64,000 nucleotides of DNA from a virus (IMGVR_UViG_2698536484_000026), one strand, 5' to 3'; positions 18,484 through 38,209 are shown, numbered from the stretch's first letter. Notes: generated by a model from the letters alone, not told the origin. Numbers and translations are program-made.

Positions 18484-18510
18484 AGGTGGTGCATTGCACC
18501 ACCTTTTTAT
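18484..18510 (+). terminator. Rho-independent terminator
   Basis: Perfect 9-bp stem aggtggtgc/gcaccacct followed by TTTTAT. Confidence 0.55.
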
Positions 18511-19610
18511 CACACTGCGCGGAATGCGATTTCGCCAGGTATTACTTCACCTTGCCAATACATTTGGGCAGCAACGCGATCTGCGAGGTCACGATAAATA
18601 GCCGTAAATTCGCTATCTGGACGACTAATAACGGTTGGTGTTCCGTTATCCAGATCTTCACGAAGAGAGATATGAAGTGGCATTTGGCCTAACAACTGCG
18701 TGTTGTATTTCTCGGCCAGTTTCTGTGCGCCACCGGTGCCAAAAATTGGCTCGTGATGACCGCAGTTACTGCAAATATGCACACTCATGTTTTCGACGAT
18801 ACCTAGTACCGGCACTTCGACTTTTTCGAACATCACAATGCCTTTCTTCGCATCGATCAGCGCGATGTCTTGCGGCGTAGTTACCACAACCGCACCAGTT
18901 ACAGGAATGTTCTGCGCCAGCGTCAATTGAATATCACCAGTGCCCGGCGGCATATCGAGAACGAGATAGTCCAGATCAGGCCACAGTGTTTCCTGCAACA
19001 TCTGCATCAACGCCTTGCTGGCCATCGGTCCACGCCACACCATTGCATTGTCGTCGGTGACCAGATAACCAATAGAGTTGGTTGCCAGGCCATGAGACAT
19101 GATAGGTGCCATGTGAGTACCGTCCGGTGAGGTTGGACGTTGGTTTTCCGCGCCCAGCATGGTTGGAATTGATGGACCATAGATATCGGCATCCAAAATA
19201 CCAACTTTCGCACCTTCAGCAGCCAAAGCCAGTGCCAAGTTTACTGCTGTGGACGATTTGCCTACACCGCCCTTGCCTGAGCTTACGGCGATAATATTCT
19301 TAACACCATTAATGCCTGGTTGGTTTTTGACGCGCTTAAGCGTGGCAATGTTGTACGACAGCTTCCAGTCAATAGCCTTTGCGCCAGTGATACGGAGCAG
19401 ATCACCACTACATTGCTCTTTCAGGTCTTCAAAAGGCTTATTCCACACGAAAGGCATGATTAGTTCGACATGCAGTGTGTCATCCATCAACGCAACATGG
19501 TGTAACGCTTTAAGCGTAGTCAGGTTGTGTTTCAGGGTTGGGTGCTGAAAATTAGCCAGCGTACCGGCTACCATTGCTCTCAGGGCATCCGGCGATTTGG
19601 ACTCGCTCAT
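18510..19610 (-). CDS. apbC: Iron-sulfur cluster carrier ATPase ApbC/Mrp
   Basis: Near full-length match to enterobacterial Mrp: AVSSGKGGVGKSSTAVNLALALA, MPPGTGD, C-terminal CSNCGH. Confidence 0.9.
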   Translation of the reverse strand: MSESKSPDALRAMVAGTLANFQHPTLKHNLTTLKALHHVALMDDTLHVELIMPFVWNKPFEDLKEQCSGDLLRITGAKAIDWKLSYNIATLKRVKNQPGINGVKNIIAVSSGKGGVGKSSTAVNLALALAAEGAKVGILDADIYGPSIPTMLGAENQRPTSPDGTHMAPIMSHGLATNSIGYLVTDDNAMVWRGPMASKALMQMLQETLWPDLDYLVLDMPPGTGDIQLTLAQNIPVTGAVVVTTPQDIALIDAKKGIVMFEKVEVPVLGIVENMSVHICSNCGHHEPIFGTGGAQKLAEKYNTQLLGQMPLHISLREDLDNGTPTVISRPDSEFTAIYRDLADRVAAQMYWQGEVIPGEIAFRAV

Positions 19611-19767
19611 CCCGTCTCCTTTATTTTAATTTGCGCAATTGTCGCCTTGTAGTGTACTCCAGCTGCGACATTTAATCATTTATGAGAAATGCTGTTATCA
19701 CATGGCAGACATAAGGCCATTTTGTTACTATCAAGCCCCTTTTCACTACAAAGAAGTAATGCCTACT

Positions 19768-21801
19768 ATGACCCAAGTCGCGAAGAAAATTCTGGTGACG
19801 TGCGCGCTGCCGTACGCTAACGGCTCAATCCACCTCGGCCATATGCTGGAGCACATCCAGGCTGATGTCTGGGTTCGTTACCAGCGAATGCGCGGCCACG
19901 AGGTTAATTTCATCTGTGCCGACGATGCCCACGGTACGCCGATCATGCTGAAAGCACAGCAACTTGGTATCACACCGGAGCAGATGATTGGCGAAATGAG
20001 TCAGGAACACCAGACTGATTTCGCAGGCTTTAACATCAGCTATGACAACTATCACTCGACGCACAGCGAAGAGAACCGTCAGTTGTCTGAGCTTATCTAT
20101 ACTCGCCTGAAAGAGAACGGTTTTATTAAAAATCGCACTATCTCTCAGTTGTACGACCCGGAAAAAGGCATGTTCCTGCCGGATCGTTTTGTGAAAGGCA
20201 CCTGCCCGAAATGTAAAGCGCCAGATCAATACGGCGATAACTGTGAAGTTTGCGGCGCGACCTACAGCCCGACTGAACTGATCGAGCCGAAATCGGTGGT
20301 TTCTGGTGCTACCCCGGTAATGCGTGATTCTGAACACTTCTTCTTTGATCTGCCCTCTTTCAGCGAAATGTTGCAGGCATGGACCCGCAGCGGTGCGTTG
20401 CAGGAGCAGGTGGCAAACAAAATGCAGGAGTGGTTTGAATCTGGTCTGCAACAGTGGGATATCTCCCGCGACGCACCTTACTTCGGTTTTGAAATTCCGA
20501 ACGCGCCGGGTAAATATTTCTACGTCTGGCTGGACGCACCGATTGGCTACATGGGTTCCTTCAAGAATCTGTGCGACAAGCGCGGCGACACTACCAGCTT
20601 CGATGAATACTGGAAGAAAGACTCCACCGCCGAGCTGTACCACTTCATCGGTAAAGATATCGTTTACTTCCACAGCCTGTTCTGGCCTGCCATGCTGGAA
20701 GGCAGCAACTTCCGCAAGCCGACCAACCTGTTTGTTCACGGCTATGTGACGGTGAACGGCGCGAAGATGTCCAAGTCTCGCGGCACCTTTATTAAAGCCA
20801 GCACCTGGTTGAATCATTTTGACGCTGACAGCCTGCGTTACTACTACACTGCGAAACTCTCTTCGCGCATTGATGATATCGATCTCAACCTGGAGGATTT
20901 CGTTCAGCGTGTGAATGCCGATATCGTGAACAAAGTGGTTAACCTGGCGTCCCGTAACGCTGGCTTTATCAATAAGCGTTTTGACGGTGTGCTGGCAAGC
21001 GAGCTGGCTGACCCGCAGTTGTACAAAACCTTCACTGATGCCGCTGAAGTGATTGGTGAAGCGTGGGAAAGCCGCGAATTTGGTAAAGCTATCCGTGAAA
21101 TCATGGCACTGGCTGACCTGGCTAACCGCTATGTCGACGAGCAGGCTCCTTGGGTAGTCGCAAAACAGGAAGGTCGCGATGCTGACCTGCAGGCGATTTG
21201 CTCAATGGGCATCAACCTGTTCCGCGTGCTGATGACTTACCTGAAACCGGTACTGCCGAAACTGACAGAACGTGCGGAAGCATTCCTGAATACGGAACTG
21301 ACCTGGGATGGCATCCAGCAACCGCTGCTGGGCCATAAAGTGAATCCGTTCAAAGCACTGTATAACCGTATCGACATGAAACAGGTGGAAGCACTGGTGG
21401 AAGCGTCTAAAGAAGAAGTGAAAGCTACTGCCGCGCCAGTTACTGGCCCGCTGGCAGACGACCCGATTCAGGAAACCATCACCTTTGACGACTTTGCCAA
21501 AGTTGACCTGCGCGTGGCACTGATCGAAAACGCAGAGTTTGTTGAAGGTTCTGACAAACTGCTGCGCCTGACGCTGGATCTCGGCGGTGAAAAACGCAAT
21601 GTCTTCTCAGGCATCCGTTCTGCTTATCCAGACCCACAGGCACTGATTGGTCGTCACACCATTATGGTGGCTAACCTGGCTCCGCGTAAGATGCGCTTCG
21701 GCATCTCCGAAGGTATGGTGATGGCTGCTGGCCCCGGCGGGAAAGATATCTTCCTGTTAAGCCCGGATGCTGGTGCTAAACCTGGCCACCAGGTTAAGTA
21801 A
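19768..21801 (+). CDS. metG: Methionine--tRNA ligase
   Basis: [26 protein letters not shown] (HIGH), KMSKS, CPKC...C zinc knuckles, C-terminal tRNA-binding domain; 677 aa from ATG 19768. Confidence 0.95.
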
Positions 21802-22393: not shown

Positions 22394-23623
22394 ATGATAA
22401 TTGAACAAATAACCCCTTGCTCGGAGCTTGGAATGACTGATACCGCTTTTTCAAAATCGTTACAAAAAGAAGTCGATCCTGAGCAGTACTTGGCGCTAAA
22501 GAATTTAGATGACAGCTCGGTTCATGCTATTGCCCGTGACGATATCATCTGCCCCATTTGCAAAGTTGGAGGTGGTTCGTTCGTTAGAGCCACAAGGAAT
22601 GGTGGCTATCACAAGAAGGCGCATTTCAGATTTACCGGTGAAGATGGTCAAGGCCATCATCCATCATGTGATTTCTATGGAGATAGACTAACATCTGAGG
22701 TGAAGCAGCACCTTGTCTCATTCACAAAAGATCGAACAAAGTATTCGCAGGTAATACGAAAGCTGGTCTGTGCCGGCATACAGGAAGGGATATTTACTCA
22801 AGAAAAAATGTGGCAGATGAGGGAATGGTTCTTCAATAAGCGAAAGGATTCCACATTTGAAATATGGTTAGAAAGCGAGCATTTAGACTGGCTTTATTAT
22901 ATTAGTGGGTTACGTGATGCATATCTAGCATGGACAACTCCTGATATTCTACCTTTCGCGCCCATTCAGGTTACTGTGCCTGGTTTTTCTTGGAAGCGTG
23001 CGATTGACAAAGAGGTGCTAAGAGTTCACATCAAGACTCTCCAGCAATTGCGTGAAATTTCAGTCTCACATAGAGACATTGCTGTAATCTTAGAACACAT
23101 AAACAATAATCGTGACCGCACAATTCTCGATCCATCGCATTTGGAGGACGAGATAAGTAAGACCTATAAGCTTACTAGTTTTGTGATGGGCAATTACATT
23201 GAGTTTCAGACAAAAACGGTTAGCGACAGAGCATACGGGGAAGCTAAGTTTCTGGCATTTGCAGCACTTTTGTTGTTCGTGTCAGATTGGGACCTCAACA
23301 TTGCTATTGGTAAGTTTTCTAAGATTGCCAGAGTGAAGGAGGTTGATGACATGCTGGCTGGTAATTTCATTGGTCTTAATCCTTACTTCCGATACGACCT
23401 GGCTAATGCAGTGAAGAGATTGCAGGATAACTGGCCGATTGAATACCAAGAGTTGGAGCATTGGAATGTTGAGAAATCCATGCGTGACGCATATGAAAAG
23501 TGGCGTGCGACAGAGCCTGAATTCGCTCCACCCCTATTGCCAGACTTGTATATTGCCAAACATGAGAAAGAAGTCGCACAAGACGAGCAAGTCAGGCAGT
23601 GGATTAAGAACGGGGATGTTTGA
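22394..23623 (+). CDS. Hypothetical 409-aa protein with CPICK...HHPSC zinc-ribbon-like motif
   Basis: Long ORF with AT-rich upstream region; no recognised family. Confidence 0.45.
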   Translation: MIIEQITPCSELGMTDTAFSKSLQKEVDPEQYLALKNLDDSSVHAIARDDIICPICKVGGGSFVRATRNGGYHKKAHFRFTGEDGQGHHPSCDFYGDRLTSEVKQHLVSFTKDRTKYSQVIRKLVCAGIQEGIFTQEKMWQMREWFFNKRKDSTFEIWLESEHLDWLYYISGLRDAYLAWTTPDILPFAPIQVTVPGFSWKRAIDKEVLRVHIKTLQQLREISVSHRDIAVILEHINNNRDRTILDPSHLEDEISKTYKLTSFVMGNYIEFQTKTVSDRAYGEAKFLAFAALLLFVSDWDLNIAIGKFSKIARVKEVDDMLAGNFIGLNPYFRYDLANAVKRLQDNWPIEYQELEHWNVEKSMRDAYEKWRATEPEFAPPLLPDLYIAKHEKEVAQDEQVRQWIKNGDV

Positions 23624-24689
23624 GTGTAATTAGCTTAATCAATCAGTTGATAATGGCGGTCACAATTTGATTCTTTTCTATAAGAATCCGTTGATCGCCA
23701 CTACTCTTCTTCCATACCTGCAATCACACCTTTAAATATCAATAGGTTAGCGTTGTTTATACCAATAAGAAAACAACTAAATAACAGATCAACGAAACGT
23801 CAACGCTTTCACCCGATTTGGTCTAAAAAATTGACGTTTTCACACATCACTGCTTATACCCGTAACTCTACGCAGCAGACAGCGCCACAGAGTCCAATTT
23901 TCACCACAGACGACTCAACACACTACCAACAAAAACACACGCTCAAAATCGCTCCCGCTGCGTTACACAACCATATAAACAACATATTTTCAGGTATAAC
24001 AAAACAACTAAATAACACATATGCCATTCCCCAAAACAACCAACCTCTTTATGGCAGGCTACCGAAAAGACCCACCTCTTCTCCCCAGGCTACTGGACAA
24101 CCAACCTAACTTTCACAGGCAATCCGAAAACATTCATACGCGCGATACCCACGACACGCCATTCCCCAAACAGCGAAGAAACACCAGAATCACTGAAACC
24201 CCAACGAAGCCTGTAACCGCAAGGATTCTCTCAATCCCAAAAGACTCGAAGCATAACAATCACGGGAAACGCCATTACCCAATACACGAATAACTACAAA
24301 AGCCTTTCACACACTCCAGACAAACAACTCAAACACAATAACGAAAGGAATCGCCCACCTGCCATTACTCCATACACGGAGAAGAACAATCACCAAAACG
24401 ACGAGAACACCCCATAGAAGAACCACCGCAAAACGAACGAAACCACATACACCGACAGAGAAAACAACACACCCAATTCACCAACAGAAATAGTCGCCGT
24501 ATAGAACATTCTGGAAGGAGTGAGCATTAACGCCTATAGAGAGGTTGAGACAGATAAAACACAACATGTATAGCGAAGAAGCCAGGTATGTATAAGTGGG
24601 GAGGGAAGGAGGGGTGTCGCCTCCTTTTTCGTATTTATTCAACTCCTGATTTTATCCCCCCGTAACACCCCTACGGTCAGCCTTCGGTC

Positions 24690-24835
24690 CATACAGGGAA
24701 AAGGCTGCATCCCGCTACAGAAACGGCTGGGTTGCCTTCGGGGAACGGCTGGAGGTTTTCAGGGAAACGGTCGAGTTGCCTGTGTGGATTTCGGGAAAAG
24801 GCTCGATGCCGGTTCAGGAACGGTGGCGTACCGGT
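24690..24835. repeat. Iteron-like direct repeat array A (GGGAAACGGCTG-type units)
   Basis: Six degenerate copies of GG(G)AA(A)(A/C)GG(C/T)NG at about 24696, 24720, 24741, 24761, 24792, 24816. Confidence 0.45.
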
Positions 24836-25185
24836 ATAGCGAGAGGGAGAGTTGCGGCTACCCACCTGTAATGTGCGGGAAGAAGAGAGGCGCTCACGTA
24901 GGCGGACTTGCTTACCGCTGGATTCCCTCTGAATGCCCAGCTACAGCGTAATTGTGCCAGACAGCCAACGGGTCACAATCGATTTCAGTAGGTTTTCGGG
25001 GAGAGGATTATTCTGCCCACCAGCCACCTTCGGCCACTAAATCAGAATAATGTAAAAAGTATACTCGGTACTGAACCTGAAAACTCACTGCCAAAACCAT
25101 ATTCACCGGAATAAAATCCTTTTTCGCCTGTGCGTTATTGCGATAATAACACCATCAAGAAAACATGTTGTTTAAGGATTGCTTT

Positions 25186-25515
25186 ATGTTTGCAAATATC
25201 GACATCAACCAAATCAAGAAATTAACTCAAAAAGAGTTTGATCAGTTTTATGAGTTAGAAGGTTGGTCTTCCACTCTGATCAATTCAAGATGGGTGCTGG
25301 AACTGATGACTCGTGATGACGCACCTGCTTTGATAATTTGCGACATGGGTGAAGATGCTGACTTTATGGATATGAGCGAATTTTGTGTGGACACATACAA
25401 CCGCAGCCAGAAGTACTACTTCACATGCGATAGCGAAAATGACGTGATTTCTAAGGTCTATCTTCACCTCGTCCAGCATTGGGACGTTCAGGAGTTTCTT
25501 GAAGTATTCGAGTAA
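25186..25515 (+). CDS. Hypothetical protein
   Basis: Preceded by CAAGAAAACATGTTGTTTAAGG motif; terminator hairpin follows. Confidence 0.4.
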   Translation: MFANIDINQIKKLTQKEFDQFYELEGWSSTLINSRWVLELMTRDDAPALIICDMGEDADFMDMSEFCVDTYNRSQKYYFTCDSENDVISKVYLHLVQHWDVQEFLEVFE

Positions 25516-25668
25516 CCCCAACCAAAGCCAGCAATGCTGGCTTAATTTCTCTATAGCCGCAGGGAAGAACCTGCATATCGCTCATGCACCTGATCAATAT
25601 GCTTTGTAGCCGTTTTCTTACTGGTATTATTTACGCCATTGAGAAAACAAGTTGTTTACGGAGTTGTA

Positions 25669-25980
25669 ATGAAAAAATCATTGGTTCTTGGTCTGGACAA
25701 AGACCAGAAGAGAAAAGAGAAGCCTGCGCTGGTTGCTCAATTAACTTTGCTGGACATCGTTGCCAATGGAACCTCTATTCGTCTGTTCCGTGAAACAGCG
25801 GTGTCTTTCGATAAAAACACCTTTACTCGTTATGTAATGAATGTTCGTCGCCAGCGTGGAAAAGGCTGGGTGGCATTTCAAAGAATGTGGCCGGAACATC
25901 AGCTCGAACTGGCTTTGATGGAAGTTAACCGCGTGGCCCAGCAAGAGATTCAGAGAGCATCAGTGATGGCAATAGCCTGA
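25669..25980 (+). CDS. Hypothetical protein
   Basis: Preceded by GAGAAAACAAGTTGTTTACGG motif; terminator 26015-26044 follows. Confidence 0.4.
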   Translation: MKKSLVLGLDKDQKRKEKPALVAQLTLLDIVANGTSIRLFRETAVSFDKNTFTRYVMNVRRQRGKGWVAFQRMWPEHQLELALMEVNRVAQQEIQRASVMAIA

Positions 25981-26106
25981 TAATGTGCAAGTGGCAATTA
26001 GTCGACAGTACGACAGCCCCGCCATCCTTACGGGGCTTTTTTGTATTGTAAGTACATACTTACGATCATAGAATATAAAAATAACCAATACACTACGGAG
26101 AGTGAA

Positions 26107-26502
26107 ATGACCGTTAAACGCGAAAAACTGACAGTTGATGTTTACTATGCCTCTGAAACCGCCGAAGGTAAGAATGTGGCAAAAATCACCGTTGTTACGT
26201 ACAACACCGAAACTGGTGCCGAAGTCCAGGCCAGTACGATCGTGCGTAAAGGTGATGCCTCCGGCGGCGAGTACGCGACTCAATACCAGTCCATTCTCGA
26301 TGCAACTGACCCGCTGCTGCTGAAAATCGAGAACTACTTCCGCCAGGTTGATGAAGAGGTGTTTGAAACCATGATGAATATGGTTAACACCGTATTCGCC
26401 TCCAGCCTGAATACCAACACTACCTGGATTGGTCAGTACGGCCTGCGCATTACCTCTGGCATTCCTGCCGACACCTTAATCCCTGAAAGCGTATTCGCTT
26501 AA
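26107..26502 (+). CDS. Hypothetical protein
   Basis: ORF with GGAG RBS; terminator 26511-26538 follows. Confidence 0.4.
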   Translation: MTVKREKLTVDVYYASETAEGKNVAKITVVTYNTETGAEVQASTIVRKGDASGGEYATQYQSILDATDPLLLKIENYFRQVDEEVFETMMNMVNTVFASSLNTNTTWIGQYGLRITSGIPADTLIPESVFA

Positions 26503-26577
26503 TCCTCTTTAAATGGCGCGTAAACCGCGCCATTTTATTAAGCCCGATAACAATTTGTTTTCTGCCTTATCTGATTT

Positions 26578-26994
26578 GTGAAAATGATTTCACTGAAGCA
26601 ACTTAATAAGGAAACCATCATGGGACTTGATATCTATATCGAGACACAGCCTAAAAACGATCTGAATAACGAGGCATCCAGAAAGCAGGTTGCTTACTTC
26701 CGTAAGTTCAATGCGCTCGTTGGGTGGATGGAGCGCAACGTAGGTGAAGTCGAAAATTGTGAGCTTTTAGAATTAACGATGAATGACATTTGTTTTCTGA
26801 AGGCTCATTTGATGCACATAAACGAAAGTAATTGCGAAGAGTACTTGCCTACCCGGGAAGGTTTTTTCTTCGGCAGTCAGGAGTACGATGAAGGTTACTG
26901 GCATGATGTGGGGCAGTTGAAAGAGCTTGTGGAAGATCTGATTAAGAACCACGACTTTCACAATAACAGACTGACCTTCTGCGCCTGGTGGTAA
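26578..26994 (+). CDS. Hypothetical protein
   Basis: Preceded by conserved AACAATTTGTTTTCTGCC...TGTGAAAAT element. Confidence 0.4.
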   Translation: MKMISLKQLNKETIMGLDIYIETQPKNDLNNEASRKQVAYFRKFNALVGWMERNVGEVENCELLELTMNDICFLKAHLMHINESNCEEYLPTREGFFFGSQEYDEGYWHDVGQLKELVEDLIKNHDFHNNRLTFCAWW

Positions 26995-27344
26995 ATATGG
27001 GCGATTTCAAGAAACGCCTGAAGGAAAGAGCCGAGATGGTCAGAAAGCAAAACGCCTCTTCTGTCATCAGATACGCAAGGCAGTTTAGTCGCAACAACAA
27101 ATCAGTTGAGGAAAAGATCCTTAGCGTAATCGTGCGATAATTATTAAGGCCATCAGCATTGGTGGCCTTAAATGACCATCTTGTTTCCCGCAGGCTAAAA
27201 ACACCAACCTCTTACCTCCAGGCAACCGACAAACCCACCTGTTCCCGTCCGGCTACCGCAACTTTCCACTTTGACGCCTTATTCGTACAACGATAATTAA
27301 CACCAACAAGAAAACAATTTGTTATTTACGATAAGGAATTAATC

Positions 27345-27827
27345 ATGAATTTTATCGCTACTGTAAACGCACCCGCACATGGCAATATCGCTGTAACGTT
27401 CTCTGACATTGAAAAACGAGTACTTGGTGCATGGCGCGACAATGAGACGGTAGAACTGTCAGCACAAGAAAAATGCATTATTGCACGCGACATCATTGGC
27501 AATCGTCGTTACTCGCGGGTATTTGAGAAAGCGTATGTGGTAAATTCTGGATTCGGAACGTTCGTCTTTCCGGTGCGCTCCGGGCGATTCTGCCAGTCCA
27601 AGCTGATTGAGTTCGCTACGCAGATTTCTGTCTGGATTAAAACTCAATCGTCGTTCAAATTTTCCGACGATGAAGCAGTATCGCAGGGGATGCGGATCGC
27701 CAACAATGCAATTAAATGCAAAAACATTACGTATACCGCTGGCGTTGATACATGGAAACTGTTTTGCGCTAACTTTATGCTGAATGTATACGCAAGCAAC
27801 CGCATCCACATCCTTGATGGCGTGTAA
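27345..27827 (+). CDS. Hypothetical protein
   Basis: Preceded by CAAGAAAACAATTTGTT motif; hairpin 27830-27858 follows. Confidence 0.4.
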   Translation: MNFIATVNAPAHGNIAVTFSDIEKRVLGAWRDNETVELSAQEKCIIARDIIGNRRYSRVFEKAYVVNSGFGTFVFPVRSGRFCQSKLIEFATQISVWIKTQSSFKFSDDEAVSQGMRIANNAIKCKNITYTAGVDTWKLFCANFMLNVYASNRIHILDGV

Positions 27828-27869
27828 CTGAGAAGAGGGCCAGAAACGGCCCTTTCTCTATAGCCACCA

Positions 27870-28040
27870 GCTGCCGCAGGGAAATTTTCAGAAGCGGCGA
27901 GGAACGTATTCATGAGCCGACGGGGAACGGCCAGGATTTTTTCGGGAAACGGCTGCATTTGCCTTTGTGTAGAAAAAAACATCGGGAAGCTGGTGGAATC
28001 CAACCAGCGGTTGTCGGACAGGTGAGCGGGGAAAATTATG
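27870..28040. repeat. Iteron-like direct repeat array B (GGGAAACGGC-type units)
   Basis: Six degenerate copies (cagggaaatttt, gaggaacg, cggggaacggccagg, cgggaaacggctgcat, cgggaagctgg, cggggaaaatt). Confidence 0.4.
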
Positions 28041-28434
28041 ATGACTTTCGTCACCTGAGACATCCAGATTTCTTTCGTAGCATAATCACATACGTGATTA
28101 AGTGGTGTGATTATGTGAAAAATCACGCGCACATAATACGCGAGCGGATACGGAACAAAACAAAATGCCGATCCGCGCCGACAAATAAACGCGGATCATA
28201 AAGCAAGACTAAAAGCCAATGATTAACTATGCGCTATAACGCGTTTTAAGCGCGTTAATGTGTTAAGTAATGGGTATGTACTGGCAAGGATATAAAAGCG
28301 CGTCTATGGCGTTATTTTGGCGCTTATTTTTATGTTGTTGGAGTGAGTTAAAGACAATAAAAAACGCGCCATCAATGGCGCGTTATTGTGGAAGTATTGG
28401 AAACGAAAAAAGCGCCCATAGTGGGCGCTCGATT

Positions 28435-28665
28435 TTATTTGTGTAAACTGATTTTAAATCCCATTTCTACGAACGCTTTTAACATTAAAAATATATCAGC
28501 GTCGTTCACGTCTGCTTTTTTTCGCTCCTGGTCGCTCAATAAGTCAATTTTGCGCGTCGTTTCATCTATAAGCTCGACTACGCGCCCAGCGTAACCAGCG
28601 ATCCCAGCGATGCGATTAACATAATATTCATTATGGACGTTAACGCCAGCGATAAGAACAAACAT
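28435..28665 (-). CDS. Hypothetical small protein (AT-rich cassette)
   Basis: Minus-strand ORF bounded by GCGCCCATAGTGGGCGC hairpins. Confidence 0.35.
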   Translation of the reverse strand: MFVLIAGVNVHNEYYVNRIAGIAGYAGRVVELIDETTRKIDLLSDQERKKADVNDADIFLMLKAFVEMGFKISLHK

Positions 28666-29882: not shown

Positions 29883-30407
29883 TTAAAATGGAAGGATTCG
29901 TTCAACCCAATCGAAGAAAACAAGTATTTTTCTGCCGTCTTCTAACTTAAGAGTGACCTGGCAAGCATCAACGCCTCTTGACACCCCTTCAATTTCACGA
30001 CCGTCTGCCATGTAGACCCTTATAGATTGGTCGTTTTGATAAGCCTTGCGACATATCGCAAAAAAGTCACGGCGTGATGGCTGATTGTCAACATAGTCTG
30101 GATGTATTGTTAGCCTACCTTTGAACTCGCGAGCAATGCCATCGATTACACCTGATTCAATTGTGCTAATGCGCTCAAGTGGGAGTCTTATACGATTTTC
30201 TTTATCATATGGAAGCGGGCATAAATCTAGCTTATTGCGGGAAGGCATTGTCCCCTGAACGTACATGCAAAACACCTGACCGTCTTCAAGCGTGACTCTT
30301 ACAGGAATGTTGTTCTTCCGCCAGAACATAAGTATGTTTTCAGCATGTTCGTAGTCTCGCGGCCAGACTTCAGCCGGTATGCCGTAGGTGATGTCCGATG
30401 TTCTCAT
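29883..30407 (-). CDS. Hypothetical protein (last gene of three-gene AT-rich operon)
   Basis: Start overlaps stop of upstream gene by 4 nt. Confidence 0.45.
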   Translation of the reverse strand: MRTSDITYGIPAEVWPRDYEHAENILMFWRKNNIPVRVTLEDGQVFCMYVQGTMPSRNKLDLCPLPYDKENRIRLPLERISTIESGVIDGIAREFKGRLTIHPDYVDNQPSRRDFFAICRKAYQNDQSIRVYMADGREIEGVSRGVDACQVTLKLEDGRKILVFFDWVERILPF

Positions 30408-34189: not shown

Positions 34190-34888
34190 GTGGATTGTAG
34201 CAATAAAATGGATGTAAAAATCACGATTTTGCAGGTTGATGTTGCCAACCTTCGCCCGAATACCTGGAACACCAATTCGGTTGGTGCGCAGAATTTTGAA
34301 AAACTGAAAGGTTCTATCGAAAAATTGGGCTTTTTTAAGCCAATTTTGGCTCGTGAACTTGAAGATGGATTTTTTGAAATCCTCGGCGGCGAACATCGCT
34401 GGCGTGCCGCTATTGAGCAAGGAATTTCAACGGTTCCGGTGCTTTCTGTGGGCAAAATTAGCGATGTCGTAGCTAAACAGATGTCACTGGTGGACAACGA
34501 GCGATACGGTGAAGACGACCAAATCGCATTGCAACGCTTCATTGAAGAAATTCAGTCAGAACTTGACTATCAACTGTCTGAAATCGCCCCGTATGACGAC
34601 GAAATCTCGATGGTTTTAGCAAAAGAGGCGGCAATCGACCTTGAAGCACTGGAGGCGTTGTCTCGTGGTAGTGATGAGCCTGTCGATACCGACAAACGAG
34701 AGAAAACCGAACGTGTGGGTGCGGAACATCAGACCATGCGCTTCAAAGTAACTTTCGATGCGTCAGATCGTGTTGCAGAAACCATAAAAAACATCATCAA
34801 AGAGCAGGCTATTAACACCGGTAATGAAATGGAGAACGCTGGTGAGGCTCTGGTGTGGCTGGTCGACTACTACAAGGAGCGTATGTAA
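34190..34888 (+). CDS. ParB N-terminal domain (ParB/Srx fold) protein
   Basis: FEILGGEHRWRAAIEQGISTVPVL. Confidence 0.6.
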   Translation: MDCSNKMDVKITILQVDVANLRPNTWNTNSVGAQNFEKLKGSIEKLGFFKPILARELEDGFFEILGGEHRWRAAIEQGISTVPVLSVGKISDVVAKQMSLVDNERYGEDDQIALQRFIEEIQSELDYQLSEIAPYDDEISMVLAKEAAIDLEALEALSRGSDEPVDTDKREKTERVGAEHQTMRFKVTFDASDRVAETIKNIIKEQAINTGNEMENAGEALVWLVDYYKERM

Positions 34889-35556
34889 TGACCAAAAAGT
34901 TTGAAATCGTATATCGCGACCCGGCAGATCTTATTCCCTATGAGATGAATGCCAAAAAGCATGATGAACAGCAGATCCGAGATCTGGCCGCAGCCATTAA
35001 AAAGCGCGGATTTGACCAGCCAATTACGGTCGATAAGAACGACGTAATTATTACTGGCCACGGCCGCCGTGAGGCTGCAATTTTTGCTGGACTTGAGCGC
35101 GTACCGGTTATTGTTCGCGATGATCTCAGTGATGACGAGGTTCGTGCGAAGCGCCTTGAAGATAACCGACTTGCCAGCATTGATTACGATGCAATTAAGC
35201 TACAGAAAGAGCTTGAGTCGCTTGTTCTGGACGATATCGAGGTTTTCGGCTTTGAAGAGCGTGAGTTGAATGTTCTCGTTGGCAGTATGACAGAAGAAAT
35301 GGACACCGACTCGCTAGTTATCGATCTTGGCGAAGAAACTAAACGACAGAAGGATGAACACACCGAGATCAGTCGTGAAGTTGCAGCGGAAGAAGTACGT
35401 GTTGTCGACGTATTGGGCTTTAAAACGCTCCCTGCTGGCTCTGCCATTGTTGTTGGTGATTTGCTTGCCCACATGGAAGAAATGACGGGAGAAAGCGGGG
35501 TAGACGCATTTGTGGCATATGCGGAGAAGATCTCTTCTGGGGAGATGGCTGCATGA
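34888..35556 (+). CDS. ParB N-terminal domain protein (second tandem copy)
   Basis: ITGHGRREAAIFAGLERVPVIV; ATG overlaps previous stop. Confidence 0.6.
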   Translation: MTKKFEIVYRDPADLIPYEMNAKKHDEQQIRDLAAAIKKRGFDQPITVDKNDVIITGHGRREAAIFAGLERVPVIVRDDLSDDEVRAKRLEDNRLASIDYDAIKLQKELESLVLDDIEVFGFEERELNVLVGSMTEEMDTDSLVIDLGEETKRQKDEHTEISREVAAEEVRVVDVLGFKTLPAGSAIVVGDLLAHMEEMTGESGVDAFVAYAEKISSGEMAA

Positions 35557-36218
35557 GCAAATACATCATCAACGTATCGTTTCAGACACGCGTAAATAAA
35601 ACCACGCGCACGTTGGAAATCGCTGAGTCGTTCGGGCTTGGCCTGGACGAAAAAGAGTGGACGCTTTACGACAATCTGGAGCTGGAAGTGAAGCAGGGCG
35701 ATGTGGTGTATATCACCGGCCAATCCGGTTCCGGCAAATCCGTTGTGCTGCGCGAGTTGCAACGACAGATGAAGGATGAAGGGCTGTCTGTAGCCTCCAT
35801 CGATGATTTTACCTTCGATAATGAGGTTAACGTCATCGATCAGTTGGGCAAAACGACCAGCGATGCGCTTGGGTTGTTATCTATGGCTGGTCTGAACGAT
35901 GCATATCTGTTTGTTCGCAAGCCTTCTGAAATGTCAGACGGTCAGAAATATCGTCTCAAGATTGCCAAACTGATTGAGTCAGGCGCTAAAGTGTGGGCTG
36001 CTGACGAGTTCGGTGCTGTTCTAGACCGTGTAACCGCTCAGGTTGTGGCATCTAACCTCCAGCGTGCCGCTCGAAAGGTTGGTGCGACGGTAATGGTGGC
36101 GACGACTCACGAAGACCTGAAGAACGCGCTGCGCCCGGATATGCAGATCACCAAGCACTACAAAGAACGCGTGAAGGTGGAATATCACAATGGTAGTCAT
36201 GATGAGGTCCATTCATGA
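35553..36218 (+). CDS. ABC-type ATPase domain protein
   Basis: Walker A GQSGSGKS, signature-like SDGQKYRLKIA, Walker B AADEF, H-loop TTHED. Confidence 0.55.
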   Translation: MSKYIINVSFQTRVNKTTRTLEIAESFGLGLDEKEWTLYDNLELEVKQGDVVYITGQSGSGKSVVLRELQRQMKDEGLSVASIDDFTFDNEVNVIDQLGKTTSDALGLLSMAGLNDAYLFVRKPSEMSDGQKYRLKIAKLIESGAKVWAADEFGAVLDRVTAQVVASNLQRAARKVGATVMVATTHEDLKNALRPDMQITKHYKERVKVEYHNGSHDEVHS

Positions 36219-37105
36219 CGGACATCATCATCAAACGCTACCGCCCTGAAGAGTTTCCGCGTCATCTGGACTTTCTGGAGCGAATGACTGTCACAAAGGG
36301 AACTGTAGAGGACTGGCACGCTCTTAAGTCGCTTCACTACAAAACAGACGGCAAACCTTTCGCGCCAACATACTATCGCTGCGAACTGGATGACCGTCTG
36401 GTGGGCGTCGTGGTTATGGCTTACCCGAAACTACTGTTGGCACCTCGCCACCGCATGTTTCCTAAGTTGAAACCAACCACTAATACCACCGTGGCTAACC
36501 AGTACTGGGGTCGGTACGTGAATAACAACTTTGCGGTGATCAGTCGCTCAGTTGTGGATACTCAGTATCGTGGCGTAGGCGTCTCTTATCGAATGATTAA
36601 CCTGGTTAGCAGGATGCATGACCGGCCAATCATTGAGATCCAGTCCTCGATGAGCAAATACAATCCCTTCGCCATGAAAGCAGGGTTTAAGTTCATCCGC
36701 CCTGAGCGACCGAAGAGCTATGAAAGTGCACTGCGTGTGTTCCAGCGCCATTTCCGCTCCGACCCGGGTGATAACGAGGCGATCGTCAAAGAGTTGTTCG
36801 CTATGAGCGAGTCTCGTCGTCGCCGTGCGCTGCGCGATTTGGTGGCGGACTACCATAAGAACAGTTCCCTGGCAAAAGCTGGGCGGAATCGTGGCACGAC
36901 GATTCAGGACATTGCCGACAGTCTGGTGGACGAGGCCAGCATTGTGAAGCTGCTCAAGGACATTCACAACCTGAGCTTTACGTCTCCGTTGTATGGTGTG
37001 TACCGAAACCCTGACTTTGGCCGTCGACTGCCTGACACGCTGCCACTGCTGGCATTCGACAAACAACCTTTGGATAAACCGTTAGAAATTGCTTTACCGG
37101 CATAA
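36215..37105 (+). CDS. Hypothetical protein, possible GNAT-like acetyltransferase fold
   Basis: QYRGVGVSYRMI weakly resembles GNAT motif A; coupled to ATPase gene. Confidence 0.4.
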   Translation: MTDIIIKRYRPEEFPRHLDFLERMTVTKGTVEDWHALKSLHYKTDGKPFAPTYYRCELDDRLVGVVVMAYPKLLLAPRHRMFPKLKPTTNTTVANQYWGRYVNNNFAVISRSVVDTQYRGVGVSYRMINLVSRMHDRPIIEIQSSMSKYNPFAMKAGFKFIRPERPKSYESALRVFQRHFRSDPGDNEAIVKELFAMSESRRRRALRDLVADYHKNSSLAKAGRNRGTTIQDIADSLVDEASIVKLLKDIHNLSFTSPLYGVYRNPDFGRRLPDTLPLLAFDKQPLDKPLEIALPA

Positions 37106-37114
37106 GGATTTGCC

Positions 37115-37381
37115 ATGACGTTAACCGATAAACAAAAGGACATCATCAAAACGCTCAATCTCGGTTATGAGCGAGGTCATCTACTTGACCTGGACGAATT
37201 GCTTGAAGTTTTGCCGTACAAGACAACCAAGCAAAGTATCCAGTTCTCAATTCGCGCTCTGATAAAAAAGGGGCTGGTGGAGAAAGGGCATACGCGCCAA
37301 CGCAGTGACAATCGCTATCACCGCCGAACTCTTGGGTTAACCACTTTAGGTCGAGCCAAAGCGAAGTTACTGGTGATGTAA
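37115..37381 (+). CDS. Small basic protein, possible winged-helix DNA-binding
   Basis: 88 aa, basic; follows GNAT-like gene. Confidence 0.35.
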   Translation: MTLTDKQKDIIKTLNLGYERGHLLDLDELLEVLPYKTTKQSIQFSIRALIKKGLVEKGHTRQRSDNRYHRRTLGLTTLGRAKAKLLVM

Positions 37382-37412
37382 TCGGTCTGGGAGCTTATTT
37401 AAAGACCTGCAT

Positions 37413-37461
37413 CTGTATATATAAATAATAAGTAACTTATTAAATATATACGGAAGCAGGC
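37413..37461. repeat. Conserved element, copy 2 (CTGTATATATAAATAA...TATACGGAAGCAGGCT)
   Basis: About 50-bp match to 6302-6351; both followed by CCAGACCT within 30 bp. Confidence 0.5.
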
Positions 37462-37576
37462 TTCGTAAGACATGCCAGACCTAATTAAACACCCCAGAAA
37501 ACAAGTTGGTTAGCAGATGCAGTAAACAAGTTGTTTTAGAGCGCATGGACGCGCTCTGTGTGTTTTAGAGGGATCT

Positions 37577-38209
37577 ATGACGGTCGAAAAAGACGAGGTA
37601 AAAACTCGCCTGACACCAGCGGAGTGGGCCGAAGCTGAAGCCAAATGGACGTCAGGCGAATATACACTCTCAAAGCTTGAGGAAGAGTACGGCATTCGTC
37701 GTGAAACACTCTCCAGACATTTCAAAAAGCGAGGATTAGAGAAAGGCGCGGACTCTGTTGGGAAGATGGTTCGTGAGTCTCTTAAATCTGACGCAGAGCT
37801 TCGCGCTAAAGCCCGTGCGGAAAAGATAGAAGAACGTCGTACACGTTATGACGGCTGGGCGTATGCGTTGGGGCAGATGGTGATGGTCGAAGTCACTACG
37901 GCCAAACGTGAGGGTAAGCCTTTAGGGGCGATTGAGGATTCTCTCAAGAGCTTACAGAGAGCCAGTAATACCCTTGCAAAATGCTTTGAAGTTTCGTCCA
38001 AAGCATTGGGCATGGATCATGCGGAAAATGACGAGGAAGAAATTCCGAACCTGGTATTTGGTGAGCTTACGCCTTCCCAGGTGGCGAAATTACGTCAGGA
38101 AGACGACGAGCCTGAAATCATCGATGACGAATTGCTTGAGACGTTGGAAGAAGAAGCTCTAAGCGAATTTGATGCGACAGATGATGGAAGTGAAGGGGAG
38201 GACGAATAA
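37577..38209 (+). CDS. Putative terminase small subunit
   Basis: HTH-like N-terminus, acidic C-terminal tail; stop overlaps TerL start. Confidence 0.5.
   Translation: MTVEKDEVKTRLTPAEWAEAEAKWTSGEYTLSKLEEEYGIRRETLSRHFKKRGLEKGADSVGKMVRESLKSDAELRAKARAEKIEERRTRYDGWAYALGQMVMVEVTTAKREGKPLGAIEDSLKSLQRASNTLAKCFEVSSKALGMDHAENDEEEIPNLVFGELTPSQVAKLRQEDDEPEIIDDELLETLEEEALSEFDATDDGSEGEDE

What the first reader, a model, noticed from the sequence alone, without database searches (positions are those of the whole stretch)
24690..28040. Two iteron-like arrays of GGGAAACGGC direct repeats
Six degenerate direct repeats at 24690-24835 and six more at 27870-28040 flank a block of small genes. Direct repeats of this kind are typical of plasmid or phage origins and partition sites, and two ParB-like genes are present downstream.
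Basis: partly seen in the sequence, partly recalled or inferred. Interest (0 to 1): 0.6.

Follow-up and report, generated by a model that had tools for sequence, protein, structure and literature searches.

The report
Orphan iteron-like arrays in a phage-plasmid
Two conserved clusters of a short DNA motif spaced every 22 bases, found in a widespread family of phage-plasmids (including the plague plasmid pMT1), look like docking sites for an unidentified DNA-binding protein and are not the plasmid's known replication origin or partition site.

Summary
The repeats are real. Array 1 (24696-24823) has six units with core GGGAAAMGG spaced 22, 22, 22, 31 and 22 nt. Array 2 (27841-28036) has two strong units and several degenerate ones.

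The window is an SSU5/pHCM2-like phage-plasmid of E. coli. Both arrays sit at the same positions, with the same core and the same 22-nt phase, in Salmonella, Klebsiella, Citrobacter, Enterobacter and Cronobacter relatives. More than 700 plasmid records carry them. Yersinia pestis pMT1 keeps array 2 only.

They are not the plasmid origin. RepA and its own CTCTCTATAGTGGAT iterons lie about 34 kb away, outside the window, and the arrays are unchanged between elements whose RepA proteins are only about 50% identical. They are not next to parA. The "ParB-like" genes show only the ParB N-terminal domain. They belong to a terminase-proximal module that is also found in phages with no detectable RepA homologue.

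I found no RNA family match, no folding signal and no covariation. The period is not a multiple of three.

Best reading: helically phased double-stranded DNA binding sites for an unknown element-encoded protein. This general reading is fairly secure (about 0.75). The specific role is not. My first guess is a vegetative origin or replication-control element (about 0.3). A ParB-type loading site or a boundary of the accessory-gene block remain live alternatives.

The parts
24696..24823 (+). Array 1: six direct units with core GGGAAAMGG at 24696, 24718, 24740, 24762, 24793 and 24815; spacing 22/22/22/31/22 nt
   Evidence: conserved in relatives
27841..28036 (+). Array 2: strong units at 27922 and 27944 (22 nt apart); 27889 CAGAAGCGG (CAGAAACGG in relatives); degenerate units at 27841, 27879, 27899, 27984 and 28028
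   Evidence: (D7)
24603..24630 (+). Intrinsic-terminator-like hairpin plus T run, directly upstream of array 1
   Evidence: conserved
27833..27858 (+). Conserved GC hairpin with a U-rich tail after the 160-aa gene, directly upstream of array 2; its loop is itself a motif-like unit (CAGAAACGG). Not listed by the terminator scan; the terminator reading is mine.
   Evidence: 10 pairs kept in 10 sequences, with one-sided changes
28040..28430 (-). Run of terminator-like hairpins on the - strand (28055, 28142, 28198, 28384, 28430) that shields array 2 from the converging - strand genes
25186..27827 (+). Block of six small genes of unknown function between the arrays (25186-25515, 25669-25980, 26107-26502, 26620-26994, 26997-27140, 27345-27827). 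Four of them (25186, 25669, 26620, 27345) have a palindromic GAAAACAAnTTGTTTTC element upstream.
   Evidence: the 160-aa protein has no known fold
23700..24500 (+). A+C-rich, G/T-poor non-coding stretch upstream of array 1 (A 40, C 32, G 13, T 16 % over 23750-24500), conserved in the family; part of the same roughly 1.5-kb non-coding region
24033..24129 (+). Second repeat family, copy set 1: three 30-31-nt units ACCCACCTCTT-N6-CAGGCTACCGAA
   Evidence: (D1)
27169..27262 (+). Second repeat family, copy set 2: two to three units just upstream of the promoter of the 160-aa gene
   Evidence: (D1)
27864..27996 (.). Chi octamers bracketing the core of array 2 (CCACCAGC at 27864-27871; GCTGGTGG at 27989-27996); a third at 25017-25024 (- strand) lies after array 1
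   Evidence: present in relatives at shifting positions

Best explanation
The two arrays are cis-acting sites on double-stranded DNA. Each is a row of binding sites for one sequence-specific protein encoded by the element, whose identity is unknown. The sites lie on one face of the helix (about two turns apart) and all point the same way.

The arrays belong to the phage-plasmid's own backbone and are separate from the RepA origin and the ParA locus. Shown: the repeats, their phase, their conservation, and their independence from RepA. Inferred: that a protein binds them, and that the same protein can bridge the two arrays 3.2 kb apart.

My preferred function is a second replication element used in vegetative growth, either an origin or an origin enhancer/control site. 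It would work like P4 ori/crr, R6K gamma/alpha/beta or SPP1 oriL/oriR, where one initiator binds two separated repeat clusters.

Confidence is about 0.75 for 'phased protein-binding DNA arrays, not the RepA or ParA sites' and about 0.3 for the replication role. The figure given for this entry is for the combined statement.
For: - Non-random, one-stranded, phased repeats.
- The core positions G2, A3, A4, G7 and G8 are invariant in all 43 array-1 units and nearly so in the 35 array-2 units, taken from ten diverged elements. Spacing is 22 nt in most cases, otherwise mainly 31-34, 43-44 or 64-66, i.e. close to whole helical turns.
- PhiR41_1 lacks exactly one 22-nt unit. There are no gaps through the core of array 2.
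- Both arrays are present at syntenic places in Escherichia, Salmonella, Klebsiella, Citrobacter, Enterobacter and Cronobacter elements, and in 713 and 762 PLSDB records. 63 of 66 viral-contig hits are SSU5-like.
- They are the only two clusters in a complete genome.
- They are not RepA iterons.
- They are shielded from transcription: a terminator-type hairpin lies upstream of each array, and five - strand terminator-like hairpins lie downstream of array 2.
- They are not RNA: no Rfam match, fold z-scores of +0.4, -0.4 and +0.8, and a covariation term near 0.
- They are not coding: the period is 22, and the ORFs annotated over array 1 in Cyrano, SSU5 and PhiR41_1 differ in length and coordinates and are not intact in the window.
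- The element encodes its own replisome: helicase, primase, Pol III alpha, gp32-like SSB, and UvsW/UvsY-like proteins. No vegetative origin is annotated in these records, and I found none described in the papers I could search.
Against: - No initiator gene was identified. The six proteins between the arrays have no family or fold match.
- There is no AT-rich unwinding element or DnaA box next to the arrays; the arrays are GC-rich.
- Array 2 lies where genes converge, which is not a typical origin position.
- Whole-genome GC skew gives no origin signal.
- The related phage hairong shows no comparable arrays.
- No binding or replication data exist.
Confidence: 0.35

Rival explanations
1. The arrays are loading or assembly sites for a ParB-family protein. 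Each unit would be a ParB/Noc-type half-site, and the conserved ParB-like pair at 34190-35556 (or another HTH protein) would nucleate there. The result would be a centromere-like or silencing complex, as with KorB or P1 ParB spreading.
For: The core GGGAAAC fits G(G/T)GAAA(C/T), the half-site shared by parS (GTGAAACA) and NBS (GGGAAATA) (PMC7383237). The best-conserved unit of each array has a T-run on its left (GGTTTTCAGGGAAACG and TTTTTTCGGGAAAC), giving a weak parS-like dyad. ParB-like protein 1 keeps a GEHRWRAA box and aligns with Spo0J into the HTH region. The insulation from transcription suits a centromere. pMT1 keeps both array 2 and the ParB-like genes.
Against: The repeats are direct, not palindromic; the best 16-mer dyad has 3 mismatches, which 17 of 100 shuffles also give. 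Both proteins hit only the ParB_N domain. Their C-terminal halves are acidic, the parB_part score is below its cut-off, and no C-terminal dimerisation domain is seen. There is no adjacent ParA, and the genes lie 6.2 kb away in a terminase-proximal module. That module is also present in Stenotrophomonas, Xanthomonas, Rhizobium and Pseudomonas phages, which lack these arrays or have different ones.
Confidence: 0.18
2. The arrays are operator-like sites of a transcription regulator. The regulator would bracket the accessory-gene block and control or insulate it by looping, as lambda CI does between OL and OR 2.3 kb apart.
For: The arrays bound a block of small genes whose content varies between relatives, while the arrays themselves stay fixed. 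The region is dense in other conserved control-type elements: the palindrome GAAAACAAnTTGTTTTC occurs 14 times against 0.8 expected, and a 30-nt repeat family lies upstream of a promoter. A conserved regulator gene (FljA-like) and an 88-aa protein with a weak LexA-type winged-helix match are encoded nearby.
Against: Neither array overlaps a promoter. Array 1 is about 300 nt or more upstream of the nearest promoter-like site, and array 2 follows the last gene. Each array lies after a terminator rather than at a promoter. No regulator could be linked to the motif.
Confidence: 0.2
3. The arrays act as RNA: an unstructured transcript carrying repeated protein-binding motifs, for example a CsrB-like sponge for CsrA (several units read CAGGGA or CAGGA), or a target of the FljA-like RNA-binding repressor.
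For: Most units contain GGA, and the 22-nt spacing falls, from memory, within the range reported for CsrA dimers. All units are on one strand. The FljA-like gene is conserved even in non-motile Klebsiella hosts. In E. coli-lineage elements, 27914-27924 GAGCCGACGGG equals 11 nt upstream of fliC in K-12.
Against: Conserved units of type CAGAAACGG lack GGA, and the invariant positions are GAAA-N-GG rather than GGA. There is no Rfam hit even at E up to 10. There is no hairpin presentation, no fold signal and no covariation. A terminator lies directly upstream and no promoter was found between it and the arrays. The strict helical phase is not needed for RNA binding. The fliC 11-mer is absent from the Salmonella, Klebsiella and other lineages.
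Confidence: 0.07
4. The arrays have no function as binding sites. They would be a remnant of a local duplication, kept as a conserved 'linker' where related elements recombine to swap gene cassettes, with Chi sites helping.
For: The two arrays share a 37-nt stretch (D7). The 30-nt repeat family is also duplicated about 600 nt upstream of each array, which suggests a segmental duplication. Chi is enriched in the window (13 against 1.5 expected), with three copies at the arrays. Gene content between the arrays varies.
Against: The core and the 22-nt register are invariant over elements only 70-80% identical in this region, while the spacers between cores vary. That is the signature of selection on the motif itself. 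Unit loss occurs in whole units.
Confidence: 0.07

Closest known systems
Rep_3 iteron origins with a second control array (P1 incC/incA, RepFIB, F oriS)
   Same: Direct repeats in helical phase with a period of about 19-22 bp, arranged in two clusters that flank genes.
   Different: There is no rep gene between or next to the arrays. The element's own RepA iterons have a different sequence and lie elsewhere. The arrays do not change when the RepA type changes. There are no DnaA boxes.
Split origins bound by one initiator: P4 ori/crr, R6K gamma with alpha/beta, SPP1 oriL/oriR (from my own knowledge)
   Same: Two separated clusters of the same short repeat, kilobases apart on one replicon, acting in cis through protein-mediated pairing.
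   Different: No initiator was identified here. No AT-rich unwinding region was seen. Replication activity is untested.
ParB-parS and Noc-NBS (PMC7383237)
   Same: The core GGGAAAC equals the family half-site pattern G(G/T)GAAA(C/T). Proteins with the ParB N-terminal domain are encoded 6 kb away.
   Different: The units are direct repeats, not a 16-bp palindrome. The proteins lack a recognisable HTH and C-terminal domain. No ParA partner is adjacent, and the gene module belongs to the phage packaging region.
Centromeres made of two repeat clusters (R1 parC, pB171 parC1/parC2; from my own knowledge)
   Same: Two clusters of five or more direct repeats. A transcription-free setting suits a centromere.
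   Different: In those systems the units are 6-11 bp, contiguous, and lie at the par promoter. Here the units are 22 bp apart and far from parA.
CsrB/RsmZ-type sponge RNAs
   Same: Repeated GGA-containing units about 20 nt apart, all on one strand.
   Different: There is no Rfam match, no hairpins, and some conserved units lack GGA. A terminator lies upstream and no promoter was found.

Membership tests
Rep_3 (RepA) iteron origin / incA-type control array | Direct repeats of 17-22 bp in helical phase | tested here: met
   Six units at 22/22/22/31/22 nt in array 1. The 22-nt phase is kept in ten relatives.
Rep_3 (RepA) iteron origin / incA-type control array | Cognate rep gene adjacent to or flanked by the repeats | tested here: not met
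   No RepA homologue in the window. The genes between the arrays have no Rep domain. RepA lies about 34 kb away in Cyrano.
Rep_3 (RepA) iteron origin / incA-type control array | Repeat sequence equals the element's RepA iterons and changes with RepA type | tested here: not met
   RepA iterons are CTCTCTATAGTGGAT. The GGGAAAMGG arrays are identical in elements whose RepA is 49-51% identical.
Rep_3 (RepA) iteron origin / incA-type control array | DnaA boxes and an AT-rich unwinding region next to the iterons | tested here: not met
   The nearest DnaA-box-like sites are at 21624 and 36553. The arrays have 52-58% G+C.
Rep_3 (RepA) iteron origin / incA-type control array | Supports replication or exerts incompatibility | not testable with these tools
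   Needs cloning and in vivo assays.
ParABS centromere (parS) | Site next to a parA-parB operon | tested here: not met
   No ParA homologue in the window. parA lies at 29.3 kb in Cyrano, without the motif nearby. The ParB_N genes are 6.2 kb away, next to ATPases and terS.
ParABS centromere (parS) | Palindromic site of about 16 bp | tested here: not met
   The best dyad has 3 mismatches of 16, which 17 of 100 shuffles match. All units are direct repeats.
ParABS centromere (parS) | Half-site of ParB/Noc type | tested here: met
   GGGAAAC(G) compared with GTGAAACA (parS) and GGGAAATA (NBS), as quoted in PMC7383237. This is a resemblance, not proof of binding.
ParABS centromere (parS) | ParB with an N-terminal CTPase domain, an HTH and a C-terminal dimerisation domain | tested here: inconclusive
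   Only the ParB_N domain is called. TIGR00180 scores 43.3 bits against a cut-off of 58.45. The alignment to the Spo0J HTH region has low confidence, and the tail is acidic.
CsrB/RsmZ-type sponge RNA | Match to a curated RNA family | tested here: not met
   No gathering-score hit in the window. No Csr/Rsm hit at E up to 10 in 23500-28500.
CsrB/RsmZ-type sponge RNA | GGA motifs presented in hairpin loops, with own promoter and terminator | tested here: not met
   Fold z-scores are +0.4 and -0.4. Conserved CAGAAACGG units lack GGA. A terminator lies upstream and no promoter-like site lies before the arrays.
Split origin of P4 ori/crr or R6K type | Two clusters of the same repeat, kilobases apart, in cis | tested here: met
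   The arrays are 3.2 kb apart in the same orientation, and are the only clusters in 108 kb.
Split origin of P4 ori/crr or R6K type | An initiator that binds both clusters and starts replication there | not testable with these tools
   No candidate was identified by family or fold searches. Needs binding and replication assays.

The most novel reading that the evidence does not exclude
The arrays are the DNA targets of the conserved pair of ParB/Srx-like proteins of this phage backbone. That would make a ParA-independent ParB-type system that recognises rows of direct half-sites instead of a palindrome. Its role would be to organise, silence or mark a stretch of the genome (the accessory-gene block, or DNA destined for packaging), rather than to partition a plasmid.
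Probability: 0.12. Interest if true: 0.75.

Novelty: new member of a known kind. Interest (0 to 1): 0.42.

Why it matters
SSU5/pHCM2-like phage-plasmids are common in clinical Enterobacteriaceae; more than 700 plasmid records here carry these arrays. They can carry resistance genes, and one derivative is pMT1 of Yersinia pestis.

How they replicate in the lytic phase, and how they control their accessory-gene region, was not described in the papers I could search. No record I looked at annotates these arrays, and I found no paper describing them.

The arrays are a conserved, transcription-insulated pair of binding-site rows that is independent of the plasmid RepA. That makes them a concrete, testable candidate for a second cis-acting element, whether a vegetative origin, a centromere-like site or a domain boundary. 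They are also a handle for finding the protein that binds them.

Tried and rejected
- RepA iterons: the sequence and place differ, and the arrays are independent of RepA type.
- Par site of the element's ParA: no motif near parA.
- Structured RNA: rejected by Rfam at gathering score and at E up to 10, by single-sequence folds on both strands, and by RNAalifold.
- CsrA sponge: the invariant positions do not fit GGA.
- Coding repeat: the period is 22, and the annotated ORFs over array 1 are not conserved.
- Family searches of all neighbouring small proteins (Pfam, PHROGs, NCBIfam, PDB sequences) gave nothing.
- Homologue search for ParB-like protein 1 returned only close relatives in its listed top 120 hits (all at least 86% identical), so no diverse profile could be built from them.
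- Whole-genome GC skew of Cyrano rises monotonically with gene orientation and shows no origin signal.
- Scanning viral contigs for two units 22 nt apart found 63 SSU5-like loci plus 3 unrelated ones. One unrelated locus (L032) has a real cluster, including the palindrome CGTTTCCCGGGAAACG, next to a RepA-like ATPase (my reading of the ORF, no family search); the context is unrelated.
- The same scan of genome contigs gave almost only chance hits.
- Chi bracket: Chi is enriched across the whole window, and the unit flank GCTGGAGG is itself Chi-like, so I draw no conclusion.
- fliC similarity (the 11-mer GAGCCGACGGG): present in the E. coli lineage only, probably chance.
- Analogous arrays in distant phages: Stenotrophomonas BUCTxx99 and Xanthomonas JGB6 have two clusters of a different repeat (CTGAAC/GTTCAG) at a comparable place, but Pseudomonas phage hairong does not. 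This is an analogy only.
- A 2026 preprint on phage-plasmid copy number could not be read.
Full report
**What the window is.** The region 24000-28400 is 98% identical to Escherichia phage CMS-2020a and 97.5% identical to phage Cyrano of E. coli LF82. Parts of it match Klebsiella phage-plasmids and Salmonella phage SSU5. The window is therefore an SSU5/pHCM2-like phage-plasmid. Window position 24000 corresponds to about 94.6 kb in Cyrano. The window runs from the nucleotide-metabolism genes, through an accessory region, into the terminase, head and tail genes.

**The observation.** Array 1 has six units on the + strand: 24696 GGGAAAAGG, 24718 CAGAAACGG, 24740 GGGGAACGG, 24762 GGGAAACGG, 24793 GGGAAAAGG and 24815 CAGGAACGG. 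Start-to-start spacing is 22, 22, 22, 31 and 22 nt.
- The 12-mer GGGAAACGGCTG with up to two mismatches occurs five times within 110 nt, against 4.5 hits expected in the whole window on both strands.
- Array 2 has two strong units (27922 and 27944, 22 nt apart) and degenerate ones at 27841, 27879, 27889, 27899, 27984 and 28028.
- Judged within the window alone, array 2 is weak. However, 37 nt of it are 76% identical to part of array 1 (D7).
- In ten diverged relatives it is the best-conserved non-coding stretch: 79% mean column identity and no gaps through its core.

**Conservation.** Both arrays occur at the same relative positions in SSU5, Klebsiella, Citrobacter, Enterobacter, Salmonella Senftenberg and Cronobacter elements, and in a second E. 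coli lineage.
- Over 43 array-1 units, positions G2, A3, A4, G7 and G8 of the core are invariant; over 35 array-2 units they are nearly so. The spacers between cores vary.
- Spacing is 22 nt in most cases, otherwise mainly 31-34, 43-44 or 64-66.
- PhiR41_1 lacks exactly one 22-nt unit.
- Blastn finds array 1 in 713 PLSDB records and array 2 in 762. The latter include 55 Yersinia records. In the pMT1 record I fetched, array 2 and the 160-aa gene sit between IS1541 copies and array 1 is absent.
- In the complete Cyrano genome the two arrays are the only clusters of the motif.
- A scan of viral contigs for two units 22 nt apart returned 66 loci, 63 of them SSU5-like.

**Not the plasmid origin.**
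- The window has no RepA or ParA homologue.
- In Cyrano, the Rep_3-type RepA lies about 34 kb from the arrays. It is flanked on both sides by many 21-bp iterons of consensus CTCTCTATAGTGGAT, with DnaA boxes and GATC runs.
- RepA of CMS-2020a, PhiR41_1 and the Klebsiella elements is only 49-51% identical to that of Cyrano and SSU5, yet the GGGAAAMGG arrays are the same in all of them.
- No DnaA-box-like site lies within 2.9 kb of either array.

**Not the ParA locus.** parA (a small Walker-type ParA of 222 aa) and its 119-aa partner lie at 29.3 kb in Cyrano. Their surroundings lack the motif.

**The ParB-like genes.** The proteins at 34190-34888 and 34855-35556 match only the ParB N-terminal domain.
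- The first keeps a GEHRWRAA box and aligns with Spo0J, but the HTH region aligns with low confidence. Both have acidic tails.
- The partition-protein model TIGR00180 scores below its cut-off.
- Together with an ABC-type ATPase, a 296-aa protein, an 88-aa protein and the terminase genes, they form a block. That block is syntenic and 27-54% identical in roughly 110-kb phages of Stenotrophomonas, Xanthomonas and Rhizobium.
- Those phages give no hit to RepA. This points to a phage-backbone module rather than a plasmid partition operon.
- Against that, the repeat core GGGAAAC fits the half-site pattern of the ParB/Noc family: parS TGTTTCAC-GTGAAACA and NBS TATTTCCC-GGGAAATA (PMC7383237).
- The best-conserved unit of each array also has a T-run to its left, giving a weak dyad. 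I keep this as a rival explanation, not as the main reading.

**RNA or DNA?**
- There is no Rfam match at gathering score in the window, and none to any Csr/Rsm family at E up to 10.
- Folding of either array on either strand is no better than folding of shuffled sequence; z-scores are +0.4, -0.4 and +0.8.
- Alignment folding gives covariation terms of -0.4 and +2.6 kcal/mol.
- Units of type CAGAAACGG, which lack GGA, are conserved in register in many lineages. That does not fit a CsrA sponge.
- A terminator-type hairpin lies directly upstream of each array (24603-24630; 27833-27858). The first was called by the scan; the second rests on the conserved hairpin.
- Five - strand terminator-like hairpins (28040-28430) lie between array 2 and the converging - strand genes.
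- The arrays therefore appear to be kept free of transcription. Together with the strict helical phase, this points to sites on double-stranded DNA.
- The period of 22 and the non-conserved ORFs over array 1 exclude a coding repeat.

**Surroundings.** Array 1 closes a conserved non-coding region of roughly 1.5 kb.
- The first 800 nt of that region are A+C-rich and G/T-poor: A 40, C 32, G 13 and T 16 % over 23750-24500.
- A second repeat family has a 30-nt unit, ACCCACCTCTT-N6-CAGGCTACCGAA. It occurs about 600 nt upstream of each array, at 24033-24129 and 27169-27262, and is conserved in the family. This suggests an old duplication of a composite segment.
- The six genes between the arrays have no family or fold match.
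- Four of the six genes are preceded by the palindrome GAAAACAAnTTGTTTTC. It occurs 14 times in the window against 0.8 expected, including before terS, and it also occurs before parA in Cyrano.

**Distant analogy.** Stenotrophomonas phage BUCTxx99 and Xanthomonas phage JGB6 share the helicase/ParB-like/terminase module. At a comparable place they carry two clusters of a different short repeat (CTGAAC/GTTCAG), 1.2-2.4 kb apart, with the second cluster in the convergent intergenic region. Pseudomonas phage hairong shows nothing comparable. I treat this as suggestive only.

**Interpretation.** What is shown: the arrays are selected, phased, one-stranded direct repeats. They are independent of RepA and ParA, transcription-insulated, and specific to this family. 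What is inferred: they are docking rows for a sequence-specific DNA-binding protein of the element, and one protein probably binds both arrays.

On function I commit, with low confidence (about 0.3), to a second replication element used in vegetative growth.
- In favour: the element carries its own replisome, and no vegetative origin is annotated or described in what I could search. Split repeat clusters bound by one initiator are known from P4, R6K and SPP1 (my own knowledge).
- Against: there is no initiator candidate, no unwinding element and no skew signal.
- Rivals: a ParB-type loading site (0.18), regulator sites that bound or loop the accessory block (0.2), an RNA-level role (0.07), and a recombination linker without binding (0.07).

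**Literature.** Searches for SSU5, phage-plasmid, iterons, pHCM2, pMT1 and direct repeats found no description of these arrays. The LF82 paper that named Cyrano reports its copy number (5.5) and its induction by ciprofloxacin, but nothing on these repeats (PMC9928086). The records that carry annotation list no feature at the arrays other than hypothetical ORFs.

**Verdict.** This is a real and conserved feature of an important family of mobile elements. Its binder and its role remain open and can be tested directly. Interest is moderate.

Noticed in passing
window 8758, 9487, 10201, 13109, 21884, 21935, 25159, 25643, 26546, 27310, 37497, 37522 (17-nt sites): The palindrome GAAAACAAnTTGTTTTC occurs 14 times against 0.83 expected. 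Most copies lie a few tens of nt upstream of a gene start; where I read the promoter (25159, 27310), it sits just after a GATAAT -10-like hexamer. It occurs before terS, and before parA in Cyrano. It is likely the operator of a global repressor or a 5'-UTR hairpin for a translational regulator.
   Followed up: partly
window 23700-24500: An 800-nt non-coding stretch that is A+C-rich and nearly free of G and T on the + strand (GC skew about -0.45, AT skew about +0.5). Its composition is conserved in all relatives, and it is about 70% identical to SSU5 and Klebsiella elements. It carries its own repeats (GCCATTMCCCAA x4 and 30-nt units). It could be a long Rho-loading tract or a non-coding RNA; its function is unexplained.
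   Followed up: partly
window 24033-24129 and 27169-27262: A second conserved direct-repeat family (ACCCACCTCTT-N6-CAGGCTACCGAA, period 30-31 nt). It occurs about 600 nt upstream of each GGGAAAMGG array; the second set abuts the promoter of the 160-aa gene.
   Followed up: partly
window 1288, 3002, 18223, 25017, 27864, 27989, 32792, 37273, 40140, 49008, 51851, 52099, 56272: The Chi octamer GCTGGTGG occurs 13 times against 1.5 expected. Two copies in opposite orientation bracket the core of array 2. The repeat flank GCTGGAGG is one base away from Chi.
   Followed up: partly
window 19639-21801 (+) and 18510-19610 (-): A full-length methionyl-tRNA synthetase (catalytic, anticodon-binding and tRNA-binding domains) and an Mrp/NUBPL-type iron-sulfur ATPase are encoded on a phage-plasmid.
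   Followed up: no
window 29883-30407 (-): [quoted passage not shown] It is also conserved in elements of non-motile Klebsiella, so its target there cannot be fliC.
   Followed up: partly
window 27914-27924: GAGCCGACGGG is identical to 11 nt in the region just upstream of the E. coli K-12 fliC start codon (L081). It is present only in E. coli-lineage elements and is probably chance.
   Followed up: yes
window 34190-38209; L202 12992-18260; L203 12986-19432; L204 12891-18081: The block ParB_N, ParB_N, ABC-type ATPase, 296-aa protein, 88-aa protein (weak LexA-type winged-helix match), terS, terL is conserved (27-54% identity) in roughly 110-kb phages of Stenotrophomonas, Xanthomonas and Rhizobium. 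Those phages have no detectable RepA homologue. The block looks like a packaging-proximal phage module of unknown role.
   Followed up: partly
L202 3039-3336 and 4243-4436; L204 2588-2727 and 5027-5250: The distant phages BUCTxx99 and JGB6 carry two clusters of CTGAAC/GTTCAG repeats, plus two or three copies of TCCATACWGG, at a place comparable to the arrays studied here. The 12-mer TCCATACAGGGA also opens array 1 in the window (24687-24698).
   Followed up: partly
window 28120-28430: A dense run of GC-rich hairpins with T or A runs on both strands, with weak Rfam similarities to Hfq-binding sRNAs (all below gathering score). They may be bidirectional terminators or small RNA genes.
   Followed up: no
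L032 1530-1700 (IMGVR_UViG_3300046714_000194): An unrelated high-GC viral contig has four direct GGGAAACGG units plus the perfect palindrome CGTTTCCCGGGAAACG, just downstream of a 413-aa ORF that looks like a RepA-type ATPase (my reading, no family search). This is an independent example of the same core used in a repeat cluster.
   Followed up: partly
window 62040-62357: 2.3-2.5 tandem copies of a 120-nt unit (76-78% matches) inside the tail-fibre gene.
   Followed up: no
window 25546-25570 and 27851-27885: The sequence TTCTCTATAGCC...GCAGGGAA follows the terminators of two genes. TCTCTATAG resembles the RepA iteron core of Cyrano (CTCTCTATAGTGG), but it is absent from the Klebsiella and Salmonella relatives.
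   Followed up: partly
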